From assembly GCA_037441385.1 (NCBI GenBank), contig JBBISH010000098.1, positions 1 through 24,487 on the forward strand: a stretch of DNA of 24,487 nucleotides, written 5' to 3'. Source of the DNA: Myxococcales bacterium. GTDB taxonomy: Bacteria; Myxococcota_A; UBA9042. The position numbers were made by a program. Positions 12,001 to 18,000 of the stretch are shown here, in pieces. Every line of letters begins with the position of its first letter. The first letter of the stretch is position 1.

Positions 12001-15000
12001 AGTGGGACTGCTTCTTGCCCGCCGGTGTGGTCAGCCAGTGGAAGGCCGCGGCGTCGCCCGAGCAGAAGGCCAAGCTTGCCCCGCAACTGGTGGACAACAT
12101 GGTCATCGCCCACGGCGACCAGACCAGCACGATCCTTGAGAACAAGACCTGGTGGCGGCAGTACGACGGTGTGCGCAAGACGCGCAAGTCGGGCTACGGC
12201 GGCGTGATGCCGGCGGACTGGGTGGACTTGTTCGGCAAGGCCTTGCAGCTGGCGGGCGATGCCCAGTGGCAGCAGAAGGCGGCGCAGTACGAGGATCCCA
12301 AGCAGAGCAAGCGCGTCAACACGCCCGACGACCAGACCACGGACAAGACGTTCAAGGACAAGCTGTCGTTCGACAGCGTGATCGCCCTGTACAAGAAAGT
12401 GTTCGGCGCCGAGAAGTTCAGCGTCATCCTGGACGTGAAGTCGCGCGACGCGACGCCCGATGTGCTGAAGGCGCTGGTGGGCGAGCTCAACAAGCGCGGC
12501 GTGCACGTGGAAGGCGCGGGCGATTTCGTGTTCAGCGAGATCGAGGGCCTGAGCGAGATGCAGCAGCAGGTGGGCGGCAAGAGCTACGAAGGCCCCAAAG
12601 AGATCAAGTTCTTCCACTTTGCGGGCGAGCTGCAGCAGGCGTGCGCCGCCAAGGTGATCAAGCCTGGCAACCATGTCATGTTCAATGCGTCGTGCCTGGT
12701 CTCGTACGACAAGCTGGCGTTTGGCGCGGCCAAGCAGGCCAGCTACGCGATCAAGAGCGACGTGGTCAAGCAACTGTCGGAATGGAAGAAGAAATTTGGC
12801 TTCCATCTGGGCCTGTACGTGCAAGAGTCCGACATCGACCCGCACGCGGCCGAGCTCATCACCAAAACGTGCAACCAAGAGGCCGGGCTCGTCGATCTGG
12901 GCTTTGCTTGGGGCGGGCTGTCCGGCAAGAGCGCCGGCGACGTGGCCCCCAGCCTGACCAGCGCGACCATCGGCGACGCCGGCCAGGCCTGGGTCGGCAA
13001 GCAGTGGGATCCCAGCATGGAGATGCCCAAGGGTAAGACATGAGCCTTTCGGTCAAGGAGTTGCGCGATATCGCCGCCGAAGGCGACTGGGACGAGCTGG
13101 CCGGTGCGGCCACCCCGGCGGAAGTGCTGGCCGCCTTGGGACCCGAGCAGGCCCTGGCGGCCGCGCACGGGGCGAGCCACAACACCTGGAATAGCCAGTC
13201 GGTGACGCGCTACGGCGTGGCGCTGTACACGCACCTGCAGCAGGCCGCGCCCGCCGCCTGGCAGGCCGACTGGCGCCACGAACTGGCCCTCGCTGAGGCC
13301 GCCGACCGCGTGTTTGCCTTCGACGTGCGCAATCAAGCGTTGCAGCGGGCCCTGGCCGCGCACACGCCGCCCCGGCTGGAAGTGGCCTGGCAGCTGGCCG
13401 AAACGCTGTATGCGCCTGAGCAAGCACCGTTGTCGCTGGCACAGGTCACCGACCTGCTGCGCGCTGCGCTTGACGGCTCGGAGCCCGCGTTTGCCTTGGC
13501 CGCCGCGCGCTTGGCGTGGCTCTATGAGCAGCAGGGGCAGGGCGAGCAGGCCGCGACCTGGCGGGCCCGTGAAGCCGAGTTGCGGGCTGCGGGGGCTGTG
13601 GAGCCGGCGGCCTGACGACCCGCTCCCGCTATTGCGCCAGCACCTGCAGAGTCACCTTGCTGCCCACCACCAGTTCGACGCAGCCGCTCTCCCACGCCGC
13701 CGACACGGGCATCGAGTCGACGGTCTGCCGCTGCAGCCACGCCGTCGCCGCGCCCGAGACGCCGTAGCCGAGTAGGGCATCCGTAAGCCCCACAGGGACT
13801 TCTAGGTGGCCGGTGTCTGGCACGTCGCAGGTCAGCGTCACCGGCGTCAGGCCGTGCTGGTCCACGTTGAGCGACAAGTGCACTTGCACGCCGGGCACCG
13901 CGGCGGCCGGCTGCCAGTCCAGGCTGAAGACCTTGCCCTTCTGCAGGGTTCCGGCCTTGTTCGGCACGCTGAGCGGCGCCACGCCGTAGCCGTCCAGGCC
14001 AAAGGCCACGGTGGGGTTGCCGCTAACCGACAAGGTGATTTCGGAACCGGTCGCGTAGGGGTCGGCGTCAAAGTCCGTGAAAAAGTAGTCCTTGTTCGCA
14101 CCCTTGGCCGTCATCACCACCGGCTTGATCAGCCCGGTGACGGTGACCTTGCCCACGTCTAGCGGCGCCGGGAACGGCTGACAGCCGCCGTTGCGCACGC
14201 ACTGCTGTGTGCCGGTGCAAGCCGGCGAGCAGACCGCGGCCTTGCGCTGCCATAGCTTGCAGGCCCCCTGACTCTCTTTGGCGACCAGGACTTGCAGGGC
14301 GTCGATGCGGTCGGCGACGTTGCCCGACACCGAGCTGCCGTACTCGCTGTCTTGCAGCACCTCGAAGCGGCCGACGCGGCGGTCCTGCTCGCACGGACCC
14401 TGCCACTTGAGCACCGAAGTGCTGGTGTCGCCTTGTGAATCGCTGCCAGTGGCTGTGTCGGCCCTGCTGTCGGGGCTTGGACTGTCGGCGCTGCTCGCAT
14501 CGGTCTTGCTGCCGGCATCGGTGGCGCTGGTCGAGGGCGTGGAGCCGCACGCCGCGACGAGCCAAATCGCAAGAGTCACTGCAACTGCGGAAAAACGCAT
14601 AGTCATTCTCCGGAACCTACTGCTGCCAGCCGGCGTGCGGCCGCGCCTGTTTGATCCAAAGCAGAGGCGCCTGGCCGGCCTCGGTATTGAATTTGAATTC
14701 CACGTCCATCGCGTAGAACTTGCCGGCCTTGGCGTAGATGGGCGCAAAGGCCTGGTGGATTTTGCCAAGCGCGGCGCTCAGTTCCTGGACCTGGGCGGTC
14801 GTCAGCACCGTCTGCCCCGCCGCCACCAGCGAGCTGTGGCCCAGCCACGCCATCGGCTGGTTGGGGTAGTCGTAATACACCAAGAATTGATCGGTGGTTA
14901 CCTCGCTTGGCGGCCGCACCACCGGCGTGTCGCCGTACTGCACGTTGATGTAGTAGGCCGGCTGGGTCGGATCGAACAGGTTGCCGGTCAGGGCCACGCC

Positions 15001-18000
15001 GTTGGCGTCCTCGGCCGGGAAGCCGCGGTGGACGAGCAGCGCCATCGCCACCGCCTGGTGATCGATACCGCGCCAATCGCGTTCTTCCCACGCCCGCAAA
15101 TTCCAAAGACTGGCCCACACTTGCCGGATGGCCTTGGCCAGCGGCTTCTTGGCATCGGCCGGGTCAAAGGTCTTGGAGGTGTACAGGCCCGCGCCGGTAA
15201 AGCCGTCCAGATCCTCGGCATTGGTGCTCGATCGCACGCGCACCGCTTGCGTGCCGAACTTGGCGGCGATGCGGGCCGTCAGCAGCGACTCGAAGGCCGG
15301 GTCCAGCGGCGCCTGCTCGACATAGGCCTGCAATTCGGTGAGCTTCTTTTCGCGCACCAACGGGTCGGCGGCAAAGCTGGGGTCCGCCTGCAGCGCCTTC
15401 ACCTTGGCCGGCAGTCCGATCTGTTCGGCAAACTGGTGGTAGAACCAAACCGGCACCGCCATCGCTGGGGGCACCGGCAGCCCTTGGATGTGACACAACT
15501 GGCCATAATTCGAGGCCTTGCCGCCAAACGCCGCCACATCGGCCGAGGTAATCTGCGTGCAATCGCGCAGTTCCTGCACGCTCAAGTCCAGCTTGGGCAC
15601 CTGCACCACCGCGGGTTTGTGCGCTTGCCACCACGCGTCGGCTTCGGCCTGTGTCACCTTGGCGACGGTCCAGTCAAACGGCGTGACCTGCAGACGCACC
15701 CACTGGTTCTCGAGCGCCCGCAACTCCTTGTTCTGCAAAGCGCCCACCAGCCCCATGTTGGGCGTGCCGCGGTTTTGCGACAGCACGTTGACGTGCGACA
15801 GCGGCGTCTGCAACTCGGCCGTGATCAGACCCGCCACCACCGAGATGTCGTTGGGCACTGCGTCCAGCACCGCCACGTCGCGCGGGCCCACCCACTTGGT
15901 CTTCTTGTCCAGGTCTGCCACCGCGTAGAAGCGCAGTTGGCCGATGGCGACGCCGGGGTTCAAGGCCTGGAAGTCGCTGCCGGCAAAGAGCTCTTGGGTC
16001 GTCACCACCTTGACCCGCGCGGGCAGACCCTTGGCCATCGCCAGCACCGCGTCGCTGGTGGGGTGGAAGCGCAAGTCCTTGCCCATCCAAGTGTTCTTGA
16101 CCACTTCGTCCCACACGGTCAGGAATTGCTCTTGACTCATGGTGTCGTAGGGCGCGATCTCGAACGTCCACAGTTGCGGGCCGTCGTAGCGGGTCAGCGC
16201 GCCCAGCAAGAAGCGGCGGGTGGGCGAGAAGTACTCTTGGGCCGAGAACGTGCCCTGATCCTTGATGAGCGGCTTGCCTTTGCCAGACAGGTACTTCAGG
16301 GCAAACGTGTAGTGGATCGGGAACCGCTCGGCGTTCAAGAAATAGAGAGCGCCGGGGCTGCTGCCCTCCGCTTGCGCGGTGTCCAAGATGACCTTGCTGG
16401 AGCGCGCGCCGGGGATGCTCGCGTCGGGCGGCCGCCAGGCCAGAGCCTCGAAGTCCGCAACACAGGTGAGCTTTTGGCCAAAATCCGGGTGGCTGCCGCT
16501 CGGCAAGGTGCAGGTGGCGGTGGCCGCCGCGGGCGCCGGGTCGCTGTCGCAGCCCAGCAGCAGCAAAGCTAGCAAAGACAGCCAGGTGCGCAGTCCCATC
16601 GCGGACTCCTACGGGAACGGCCGCGGCGCGCTGGGCACGCCAAGCTCGATGCGCCACAGGCCGATCTTCCAGCCGTCGGGCACGTAAATGCTCATAGGAT
16701 CCCAGCCTTGACCCACGCCCCACTGCATGTTGGGCAGGTAGGTCTGGTCCGGGCTGGCGTCGACGATCTTGACCGCCGGCCCGCCGCTGGGCGGGATGCG
16801 CCAGATGTCGGCGTTGCCGTACTCGCAGACGTAGACGTTGCCGCAGGCGTCGACGCCGATGCCATCGAGCAACCCGCCGCTGCCGATCGGACTGGCCCAC
16901 TGGATCAGCTTGCCAGGCACGCCGCTGGGCGACACCGCCAGCTTGTAGATCCAGCCGGTGGCAAACGAGCCGATATACAAGTGCTTGAATTCTGGGTCAA
17001 AGATGATGCCGTTGGGGTTGGCGATCTGCTTGGTCAGTACGGTGTACTCGCCGCTGTAGGGGTGGATGCGCAGTACCCGGCCGGCGTCGTGCTCGGTCAC
17101 ATACAAGAACCCCTGCATATCTGCGGTGATGCCGTTGGGGTAGCTCAGGCCCTGCACCAGCACCTTCTGCGCGCCATCTTCGTCGAACAGCAGGATGCGG
17201 CCCAGCTTGTCGTCGCACATGGCCAGCCGGCCATCGGGCAAGAAGCGCATGCCGGCGCGGTTTTCGATACCCGGCACCCACAACTTCGCCTTGGCGCCGG
17301 CCGCGGTCTTGAAGAGCGCGCTGTTGTTCGAGCCGACCAAATGGCCGGTGCCGTCAAAGGCCAGATCCTCGGACGCCACCGCGCCGGGGACCGCCTGCAG
17401 GGCAAACGGCCCCTTGGGCAAGTTCGCGCAATCATAAACCAAGGTTGCAGGCTCGCTGACGTCGACCGCAGCGGTGGCGTCCTGCGCCGCGTCGGCCACG
17501 GCGTCGGCTGCCGCGTCGGCTCCGGTTCCGGTATCGGCTCCGGCATCGGTTCCGGCCCCGGTGTCGGCAATCACGTCGACCAAGGTGTCCCTAGCATCGC
17601 CAGGCGCGTCAAGGCCTTGCGCATCGTCGCCCGCATTGCCCGCCACCTGGTCCAGCGCGCCGCCGTCTGCTGCTGCTTTGGCTGGCTCGGCTTGGCTACC
17701 GCAGGCCAGCGAAACCAGCAAAAGGAGCAGGATTCCCAAGCGCTTGCGCCGCCGGGCCAGGACCAGCAGCAGGGGCAGCGCCGCCAGCCCGCCCGCGCCC
17801 GCGCCCACCGGGCCAGCGCGGCAGCCCCCGTCGCCACTACCGGTTGTGGTGGCACCGCTGACGCTGGCGTCGCCGGCCGCGTCTTTGGGCGTGTCCCCTA
17901 CCGCGTCGACTTCGGCCTTGATGCAGGCGCCGCCCGTGCAGCTGTAGCCGCCGGGGCATTGCCCGCAAAGGCCGCCACAGCCGTCACTTCCGCAAGCTTT

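What a model noticed while it worked through the whole genome (the two positions that open the first line are those of the whole stretch)
14617..16599. Exported lipoprotein dikinases: lipobox + novel N-domain + phospho-His swivel + ATP-grasp
g03789 is a lipoprotein that carries, after an unknown N-domain, a phospho-histidine swivel domain and a PEP-synthase/rifampin-phosphotransferase ATP-grasp domain, i.e. a dikinase core outside the cytoplasm; two paralogs have the same plan (C9:14462-16825, C54:12100-14964). It defines a large unrecognised family, misnamed 'pyruvate, water dikinase', that sits in a conserved operon with a second lipoprotein.
Evidence so far: 2,364 proteins match the N-terminal part alone; 109 of the top 120 have a lipobox and 118 keep TPL[SA]H. 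Invariant H269, K361, RSSTNxED in 43 aligned. AlphaFold model pLDDT 88.6; residues 340-658 match rifampin phosphotransferase at Z 30.5, rmsd 2.4, residues 209-316 match the swivel domains of enzyme I, pyruvate kinase and PPDK at Z 8-11. Partner lipoprotein g03788 beside it in 61 of 80 loci, g03790 in 26 of 80. Record titles include Polyangiaceae, Bradymonadia, Fibrobacterota. One paper search found nothing relevant.
(Added by a program. Inside this text positions count along the whole contig: contig position 1 is position 1 of the stretch shown here. "Call 12" and the like, gene names such as g00115 and contig names such as C1 are that model's own, and its searches are not shown. The text may have been shortened before it was handed on; [...] marks where a part breaks off. 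The agent that wrote the report below was given it as the finding of a first reader that could run no searches.)

Follow-up and report, generated by a model that had tools for sequence, protein, structure and literature searches.

The report
Exported phosphotransferase, possibly polyphosphate-fuelled
This gene encodes a lipid-anchored enzyme outside the cytoplasm with the phosphate-shuttling machinery of a dikinase, and its altered nucleotide pocket and neighbouring genes suggest, without proving it, that it runs on exported polyphosphate instead of ATP and passes phosphate to a partner lipoprotein.

Summary
Confirmed: 14617-16599 (-) is a lipoprotein with a new-fold N-domain, a His269 swivel and a grasp domain with intact catalytic residues, in glucan-water-dikinase order. 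It is not PEPS, RPH or GWD. The scan found this family before on other DNA (GWD-like; polyphosphate module). New here: (1) a cytoplasmic sister family in Streptomyces (ATP-grasp ligase/MFS clusters) shares the N-domain site. (2) Against it, three hydrophobic positions inferred to line the purine pocket are Arg454/Lys636/Lys650 in 116 of 117 close exported relatives. All 36 copies beside VTC/DUF4956 genes have this triad. (3) The partner lipoprotein keeps one His in 24 of 24 closer homologues and 0 of 16 distant ones. A paralogous clade has an unrelated His-bearing partner. VTC genes flank 24 of 160 loci and occur in 56 of 64 enzyme-bearing genomes against 41 of 137 others. Best reading (0.45): a polyphosphate-driven envelope phosphotransferase, probably relaying phosphate to the partner's His. 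Against: some carriers lack VTC, some exported clades keep an ATP-type pocket, and nothing is assayed.

The parts
14617..16599 (-). Exported His-swivel phosphotransferase (dikinase core), 660 aa lipoprotein
16549..16599 (-). Type II signal peptide, lipobox LLGC, Cys17
   Evidence: rule-based, not SignalP
15976..16518 (-). N-domain (residues 28-208), alpha/beta, no solved fold matched; K69, H96, Y123, R128, D152 kept in nearly all rows of the subfamilies checked; inferred acceptor site
15652..15975 (-). Phospho-histidine swivel domain (209-316); His269 codon at 15793-15795
14626..15582 (-). Grasp domain (340-658); K361, R456, S475, E634, Q651, R653 kept; basic triad R454 (15238-15240), K636 (14692-14694), K650 (14650-14652)
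13629..14600 (-). Partner lipoprotein LP1 (323 aa from the ATG at 14600, Cys18), Cys-rich, no Pfam or PDB sequence match; conserved His249 in NVDQHG (codon 13854-13856)
16609..19569 (-). Upstream 986-aa ORF: Cys-rich repeats, a MYXO-CTERM-like segment running into a second lipoprotein signal (17701-17826), then an SGL-type beta-propeller (about 16609-17472) with E/N/N/D putative metal ligands
   Evidence: the MYXO-CTERM and ligand labels are recalled

Best explanation
A lipid-anchored envelope enzyme with water-dikinase chemistry. His269 attacks the second-last phosphate of a donor held in the grasp domain, and the terminal phosphate is hydrolysed off. The phospho-His domain then swivels to the N-domain, where K69/H96/Y123/R128/D152 help hand the phosphate to an acceptor. 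In this clade the donor is most likely polyphosphate, not ATP: the purine pocket has turned basic, and a VTC polymerase plus DUF4956 membrane protein (with a HlyD/TolC pair, a DUF2490 barrel or a phosphate porin) would export the polymer. Spending two anhydride bonds per phospho-His is what would let a low-energy polymer charge a high-energy histidine. The likeliest acceptor is the conserved His of the partner lipoprotein, making an envelope phosphorelay like enzyme I to HPr, with the SGL propeller as a possible next step. Shown: export signal, domain set, catalytic residues, residue changes, gene linkage. Inferred: activity (about 0.9), donor (about 0.5), acceptor (about 0.35).
For: RPH residues K22, R117, T136 and E297 (PMC4844700 passages) align to K361, R456, S475 and E634. 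Positions 454/636/650 are basic in 116 of 117 close relatives, 22 of 22 C9-type and 9 of 9 LTD-fused copies. They are V/L/V(L) in 116 of 116 cytoplasmic Streptomyces copies and F/L/V in 6 of 6 copies of another clade. The strand that binds the purine changes from Q-x-M/Y to H-x-S/A/G (role of that strand from PMC13553574). All 36 loci with a VTC or DUF4956 neighbour carry R/K/K. VTC lies in 24 of 160 loci, where my arithmetic gives under 0.3 by chance. 56 of 64 genomes with the N-domain have VTC against 41 of 137 without. The own genome has VTC+DUF4956 at C22. The LP1 His is kept in 99 of 100, in 10 of 10 strong and 14 of 14 mid homologues, and in 0 of 16 weak ones, which still keep W, C and G in 16 of 16. 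48 of 52 genomes with a close LP1 have the N-domain. C9-type enzymes have an unrelated partner with conserved GGnHhND and HSS motifs (21 ORFs in 19 loci).
Against: The pocket assignment rests on recalled ATP-grasp equivalences to DdlB I142/M259/L269. Two docking papers place those residues in or near the lipophilic nucleotide pocket, but I could not read coordinates from the model. 8 of 64 enzyme-bearing genomes lack VTC, and the 5 of them I rechecked (93-99% complete) also lack DUF4956. Other exported clades keep a hydrophobic pocket, so export does not need the triad. The non-triad comparison group has only 10 short loci. Three genomes have a His-type LP1 but no detected enzyme. Genomes are related, so the co-occurrence p-value overstates. 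The VTC genes are not in this window. Bacterial VTC/DUF4956 export is unproven, and 10.1101/2024.04.20.589940 suggests the polymer stays in the cytoplasm. The Streptomyces kin use the same N-domain residues with no LP1-like gene annotated beside them.
Confidence: 0.45

Rival explanations
1. An ATP-driven, GWD-like kinase that phosphorylates a surface polysaccharide or envelope glycan, using leaked or prey-derived ATP.
For: Same acceptor-His-grasp order as GWD (PMC13553574). PF22973 hits 12 of 44 members (best E 7.9e-5) against 2 of 44 for PF00391. VTC/DUF4956/CotH genes accompany Gram-positive pel polysaccharide loci.
Against: No carbohydrate-binding module among 44 members. The N-domain is 181 aa alpha/beta, not GWD's 20-helix central domain. 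No glycosyltransferase family among neighbours recurring in 4 or more of 80 loci. It does not explain the basic triad. A glycan acceptor could still combine with a polyphosphate donor.
Confidence: 0.13
2. A small-molecule or peptide kinase like TalE (N-P bond on a dipeptide amine), with LP1 or the propeller as binding or processing partners.
For: The cytoplasmic sister family sits between an ATP-grasp ligase and an MFS exporter, like talD/talE/talB. TalE is about 79 kDa with its tag (PMC6482885), near the 670-aa kin. N-domain residues are shared.
Against: TalE's sequence could not be obtained, so kinship is untested. The exported loci lack a recurring ligase neighbour. The pocket differs from the Streptomyces one.
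Confidence: 0.15
3. A scavenging hydrolase: the phospho-His is passed to water, so the enzyme degrades outside ATP or polyphosphate to release phosphate.
For: GWD turns most ATP to AMP without phosphorylating glucan in vitro. Neighbours include a phosphate porin and lamin-tail proteins. It would fit carriers that lack VTC.
Against: A conserved polar N-domain shared with biosynthetic kin, and clade-specific His-bearing partners, are more than hydrolysis needs. Linkage to a putative polymer exporter would make a futile cycle.
Confidence: 0.14
4. It runs backwards, making ATP outside the cell from AMP, phosphate and polyphosphate to feed CotH-type kinases.
For: CotH lies in 10 of 160 loci and twice in the own genome. 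The N-domain has basic residues.
Against: By recalled free energies, one polymer anhydride cannot pay for two in ATP. The grasp domain is of the water-dikinase type (RPH Z 29.0, PPDK Z 16.2). The purine pocket looks lost rather than kept.
Confidence: 0.06

Closest known systems
Alpha-glucan, water dikinase GWD1 / PWD (PF22973 + PF01326)
   Same: Acceptor-His-grasp domain order; LSH motif at the catalytic His; RPH-type grasp domain.
   Different: No CBM, no all-helical central domain, less than half the size, lipoprotein, basic pocket triad, bacterial.
Rifampin phosphotransferase RPH and PEP synthase PpsA
   Same: Grasp fold (Z 29.0) and catalytic residues; swivel His domain.
   Different: Other domain order; no pyruvate barrel; scores far below the family cut-offs (58 of 999 and 77 of 740 bits); exported.
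TalE, N-P-forming kinase of phosphoramidon/talopeptin synthesis
   Same: PEPS/PPDK-like kinase of similar size. The cytoplasmic Streptomyces kin of this family share its ligase + MFS setting.
   Different: Sequence relation untested; TalE is cytoplasmic and ATP-driven; the window gene has lipoprotein neighbours instead of a ligase.
PTS enzyme I and HPr
   Same: Same swivel fold (Z 9.6); the proposed His-to-His relay onto a small partner works alike.
   Different: No PEP-binding barrel; outside the cytoplasm; the partner has no sequence match to HPr; the relay is only inferred.
CotH / polyphosphate-polymerase (VTC) / DUF4956 accessory genes of Gram-positive pel loci; yeast VTC complex
   Same: The same three families flank part of these loci; yeast VTC couples polymer synthesis to membrane transit.
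   Different: Here they are joined to an exported dikinase and to outer-membrane conduits; the bacterial module's activity is unshown in the papers read.

Membership tests
Bacterial lipoprotein | N-terminal hydrophobic signal ending in a lipobox Cys | tested here: met
   LLGC17; rule passes 107 of 120 relatives and 1 of 1,086 internal windows
Bacterial lipoprotein | Lipidation and location shown by experiment or SignalP | not testable with these tools
   No such tool
PEP synthase (pyruvate, water dikinase) | Order grasp-His-pyruvate barrel, with a C-terminal PEP/pyruvate domain | tested here: not met
   The grasp domain is C-terminal and ends the protein; no pyruvate domain
PEP synthase (pyruvate, water dikinase) | TIGR01418 / NF005057 cut-off | tested here: not met
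   77.2 of 739.75 and 90.9 of 598 bits
Rifampin phosphotransferase | Grasp residues K22, R117, T136, E297 | tested here: met
   K361, R456, S475, E634
Rifampin phosphotransferase | Order grasp-RIF domain-His; NF041857 cut-off | tested here: not met
   His domain precedes the grasp domain; 58.3 of 999 bits
Rifampin phosphotransferase | RIF-binding fold | tested here: inconclusive
   Not listed among N-domain fold matches; a missing match excludes nothing
GWD/PWD | Order acceptor-His-grasp | tested here: met
GWD/PWD | PF22973 His domain above cut-off | tested here: inconclusive
   12 of 44 members hit at E up to 1 (best 7.9e-5); the window protein does not
GWD/PWD | CBM modules and a 20-helix central domain (483-926 in StGWD1) | tested here: not met
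   Only 181 alpha/beta residues precede the His domain; no CBM hit in 44 members
GWD/PWD | Phosphorylates glucan | not testable with these tools
   Needs an assay
TalE-type N-P kinases | Full-length homology to TalE | not testable with these tools
   MK644118 is not held; no stored protein has the ends implied by the cloning primers
TalE-type N-P kinases | Cluster with an ATP-grasp ligase and an MFS transporter | tested here: not met
   Met for the Streptomyces kin, not for the window gene or its 80 genome loci
PTS enzyme I | Swivel phospho-His fold | tested here: met
   2wqd Z 9.6, rmsd 4.2, 109 aligned
PTS enzyme I | PEP-binding C-terminal barrel | tested here: not met
   A grasp domain stands in its place
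PTS enzyme I | Transfers phosphate to a His-carrier protein | not testable with these tools
   Only conservation and co-occurrence of the LP1 His

The most novel reading that the evidence does not exclude
Myxococcota and some other Gram-negative bacteria run a PTS-like phosphorelay outside the cytoplasm. A VTC/DUF4956 machine exports polyphosphate. A dikinase whose adenine pocket has been rebuilt for the polymer spends two anhydride bonds to charge His269 and passes the phosphate to dedicated His-bearing lipoproteins. There are often several such lipoproteins per genome, each paired with a propeller enzyme, and they deliver the phosphate to envelope or prey targets.
Probability: 0.25. Interest if true: 0.93.

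Novelty: new variant of a known kind. Interest (0 to 1): 0.8.

Why it matters
The envelope is generally held to lack a usable ATP pool (recalled), so how secreted bacterial kinases are fuelled is open. This family offers a direct test with one purified protein: ATP against polyphosphate as donor, with three named residues predicted to set the preference and a natural cytoplasmic control family. If true, it would be an ATP-grasp dikinase that uses polyphosphate, which I found in none of the searches run. It would also give a function to the orphan bacterial VTC/DUF4956 module. Even on the weaker reading, a large family (809 clusters at 50% identity) is misannotated as PEP synthase, its acceptor domain matches no solved fold, and a widespread orphan Streptomyces ligase cluster depends on it.

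Tried and rejected
N-domain fold: Foldseek gave no match at E up to 0.001. VIA-align over 48,161 chains gave best Z 4.2 (phosphohistidine phosphatase PHPT1) and Z 3.3-3.7 for the polyphosphate kinase middle region; I treated both as noise. Pfam gave nothing consistent for 80 N-domains or 100 LP1 sequences, and no hit for four LP2 proteins. PDB sequence searches with both profiles were empty. ESM Atlas gave only unnamed myxobacterial clusters and a 0.76 GWD lead below its threshold. Stand-alone N-domains: the 90 short hits looked like fragments or partial calls (not checked one by one). Phage records match the grasp domain only. TalE could not be retrieved. Complex prediction of enzyme with LP1 was not available, so binding is untested. 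No RNA holder was listed. The careful tree did not finish and the quick tree is reported. PMC5371819 passages named no purine-pocket residues, and the PNAS RPH paper is not held. Record titles such as Klebsiella, Rickettsiales or Enterobacterales on some MAG loci were not used as evidence of range. The antisense ORF 14278-16572 recurs in 74 of 80 loci only as the shadow of the gene.
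Full report
Observation. The 660-codon ORF at 14617-16599 (-) is real. It is the middle gene of three on the minus strand, 9 bases after a 986-aa ORF and 16 bases before a 323-aa lipoprotein gene, LP1. It begins with a lipoprotein signal ending LLGC17. My lipobox rule passes 107 of the 120 best relatives, 30 of 41 distant full-length ones, 1 of 1,086 internal windows and 0 of 120 cytoplasmic relatives. It is a rule, not SignalP. AlphaFold2 on 90 sequences gives pLDDT 92.8. 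Residues 340-658 match the grasp domain of rifampin phosphotransferase (Z 29.0, rmsd 2.4, 292 aligned; maize PPDK Z 16.2). Residues 209-315 match swivel phospho-His domains (Z 10.3 and 9.6). The N-domain folded alone (pLDDT 93.9) found no match above Z 4.2, which does not prove a new fold. 2,355 proteins match residues 30-335, and 809 clusters at 50% identity match the N-domain profile. Two paralogues lie on C9 and C54; the N-domain profile finds C9 weakly and C54 not at all.

What it is not. Family scores are far below the cut-offs for PEP synthase and RPH, and there is no pyruvate domain. The order acceptor-His-grasp is that of plant glucan water dikinase (PMC13553574; I read the abstract, most of the Discussion and passages). 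The GWD His model hits 12 of 44 diverse members, against 2 of 44 for the PEP-utiliser model. But GWD's CBMs and 20-helix central domain are absent, so it is built like GWD without being one. The RPH catalytic residues K22, R117, T136 and E297 (PMC4844700 passages) align to K361, R456, S475 and E634. These and H269 are invariant or nearly so in 90 relatives. The enzyme looks active.

A cytoplasmic sister family. A plasmid search found 3 Streptomyces proteins that match along 74-88% of the protein (hhalign probability 100). They lack a signal and lie between an ATP-grasp ligase and an MFS transporter. 431 proteins match their N-terminal half. They share K69, D73, H96, F118, Y123, R128-R129-F130, E147 and D152 with the exported forms (62 exported and 15 Streptomyces rows). 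A quick tree of 43 grasp domains, read with RPH and PpsA as outgroup, puts them outside all 36 other members (SH-aLRT 98, long branches, two outgroups, careful search unfinished). Their setting recalls talD/talE/talB of phosphoramidon synthesis, where TalE phosphorylates a dipeptide amine (PMC6482885: results and conclusions read, plus supplement parts 1 and 3 and a search). I could not obtain TalE, so this is a lead only.

Neighbourhood. I examined 160 loci: the best 80 of 593 genome hits and the best 80 of 579 metagenome hits. Profiles seeded from the same loci find LP1 in 107, an SGL propeller in 46, a DUF1554-like exported protein in 45, VTC in 24, DUF4956 in 18, lamin-tail proteins in 14 and CotH in 10. 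With about one VTC gene per 6 Mb genome, the 1.62 Mb examined should hold under 0.3 (my arithmetic). The VTC/DUF4956 pair comes with a HlyD/TolC pair, a DUF2490 barrel or a phosphate porin. In 201 genomes of the phylum, 64 have the N-domain and 97 have VTC: 56 of 64 against 41 of 137. Kin are not independent and genome size was not controlled. Five of the 8 carriers without VTC were rechecked and also lack DUF4956. The own genome has the pair on C22 and two CotH genes, but none lies in this window. The CotH/polymerase/DUF4956 trio is described beside Gram-positive pel genes (10.1101/768473 passages). One preprint expects the polymer to stay in the cytoplasm (10.1101/2024.04.20.589940 passages). 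Yeast VTC couples synthesis to membrane transit (10.1101/2023.01.27.525886 abstract). bioRxiv supplements were closed, so the pel operon figures were not seen.

The donor pocket. Comparing subfamilies, three positions next to catalytic residues flip. Position 454 is basic in 116, and 636 and 650 are Lys in 116, of 117 full-length close relatives (3 shorter ones left out). All three are basic in 22 of 22 C9-type and 9 of 9 lamin-tail-fused copies. They are V, L and V/L in 116 of 116 Streptomyces copies (4 shorter left out), F, L, V in 6 of 6 of another, mostly signal-bearing clade, and A, L, V in PpsA; RPH reads A, C, V. The strand whose backbone binds the purine in GWD and RPH changes from Q-x-M/Y to H-x-S/A/G. 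By recalled ATP-grasp equivalences (R456, E634, Q651 to DdlB K144, D257, E270), the three positions are DdlB I142, M259 and L269. Docking papers place I142 in the adenine pocket and all three in one lipophilic site (PMC3410885 and PMC10974262 passages). I could not read the model's coordinates, so this mapping is inference. Of 213 loci scored, 201 have the triad, 10 do not and 2 are incomplete. All 36 with a VTC or DUF4956 neighbour have R/K/K, and none of the 10 has such a neighbour. The set is biased towards triad copies, nine regions were fetched because VTC was near, and the C54 copy among the 10 looks misaligned (by eye it is basic at all three). Among 41 distant proteins, 21 have K636 and 20 have K650; about a dozen signal-bearing ones keep a hydrophobic pocket, so for them the ATP question stands.

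The acceptor. LP1 has no family, but a His in an HG loop is kept in 99 of 100 copies. Of 40 further homologues that I picked across the score range (one frameshifted locus left out), the His is in 10 of 10 strong and 14 of 14 middling ones and in 0 of 16 weak ones, which keep the neighbouring Trp, Cys and Gly in 16 of 16. 48 of 52 genomes with a strong or middling LP1 have the N-domain; a 49th has an enzyme cut by a contig end and three have none. Only 5 of 20 genomes with weak homologues alone have it, and 45 of 48 genomes with a close enzyme have such an LP1. Extra LP1 copies sit beside propellers away from the enzyme in 6 of 7 such regions fetched. The C9-type clade has a different partner, LP2, with conserved GGnHhND and HSS motifs. 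A phospho-acceptor His fits all this, but so does a metal ligand or a catalytic His. The complex predictor was not available.

Mechanism. Shown: an exported protein with a full swivel-phosphotransferase core, a conserved polar N-domain, a clade-specific basic triad, and links to VTC/DUF4956 and to His-bearing partners. Inferred: His269 takes the second-last phosphate of exported polyphosphate, losing the terminal one as Pi. This is the same two-anhydride cost as ATP to AMP, and by recalled free energies it is what lets a polymer charge a histidine. The His then hands the phosphate on at the N-domain, most likely to LP1 His249. I give 0.45 to the polyphosphate-driven envelope phosphotransferase, 0.15 to a TalE-like small-molecule kinase, 0.14 to a scavenging hydrolase, 0.13 to an ATP-driven glycan kinase and 0.06 to ATP regeneration.

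Novelty. Ten paper searches in the open-access library listed no paper that, by title or abstract start, describes this family; subscription papers are largely missing. The scan noted the family twice on other genomes: as GWD-like, and as part of a polyphosphate envelope module. I had reached both links before that call. The second note gave me the pel paper and the word 'barrel'. A word search for a His relay found nothing. The two summaries shown do not mention the Streptomyces sister family, the pocket triad or the partner His. Verdict: a new variant of a known enzyme kind, with a one-in-four chance of a categorically new envelope phosphorelay; interest 0.8.

Noticed in passing
window 17701-17826 (-): In the upstream ORF a MYXO-CTERM-like segment (label recalled) runs straight into a second lipoprotein signal, its Arg/Lys tail serving as n-region. 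The same junction is in L008 and L177 (3 real matches among 12 long propeller ORFs). It may be a polyprotein cut into two surface proteins.
   Followed up: partly
L087 5000-11308, L088 4945-11335, L089 4733-11305: Widespread orphan Streptomyces cluster (PAS-HTH regulator, ATP-grasp ligase, cytoplasmic member of this family, MFS exporter); 431 proteins match. It may make a phosphorylated peptide; no paper on it was listed.
   Followed up: partly
G000 C9:16826-17641: LP2, an unclassified lipoprotein family with GGnHhND and HSS motifs, found beside C9-type enzymes.
   Followed up: partly
G000 C22:34241-38784: VTC, DUF4956, a HlyD-like protein with a long C-terminal extension and a lamin-tail lipoprotein form a cluster without the enzyme.
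   Followed up: partly
L245 2118-5282, L244, L248, L249, L251-253, L256, L257: A clade of about 1,000-aa family members has lamin-tail domains fused in front of the N-domain.
   Followed up: no
L240, L241, L243, L247, L250, L255: A clade, signal-bearing in the three copies inspected, keeps a hydrophobic ATP-type pocket, scores higher on PF01326 and has none of the usual partner genes nearby; a natural control.
   Followed up: partly
L019 2851-3651 (-), L028 4092-4976 and 43 more loci: A conserved exported DUF1554/endostatin-like protein flanks 45 of 160 loci but is not found in this genome.
   Followed up: no
G000 C54:10566-11792 (-): A probable outer-membrane barrel gene lies head to head with the very divergent C54 paralogue (barrel judged by eye).
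   Followed up: no
window 11400-13615 (+): Two ORFs (547 and 191 aa) with no Pfam or NCBIfam hit converge on the operon.
   Followed up: no
window 19608-21983 (+): A 791-aa multi-pass membrane protein without Pfam hit, resembling an amino-acid transporter by eye, is divergent from the operon.
   Followed up: no
window 8860-11289 (+): CocE/NonD-family hydrolase with a lipoprotein-like N-terminus.
   Followed up: no
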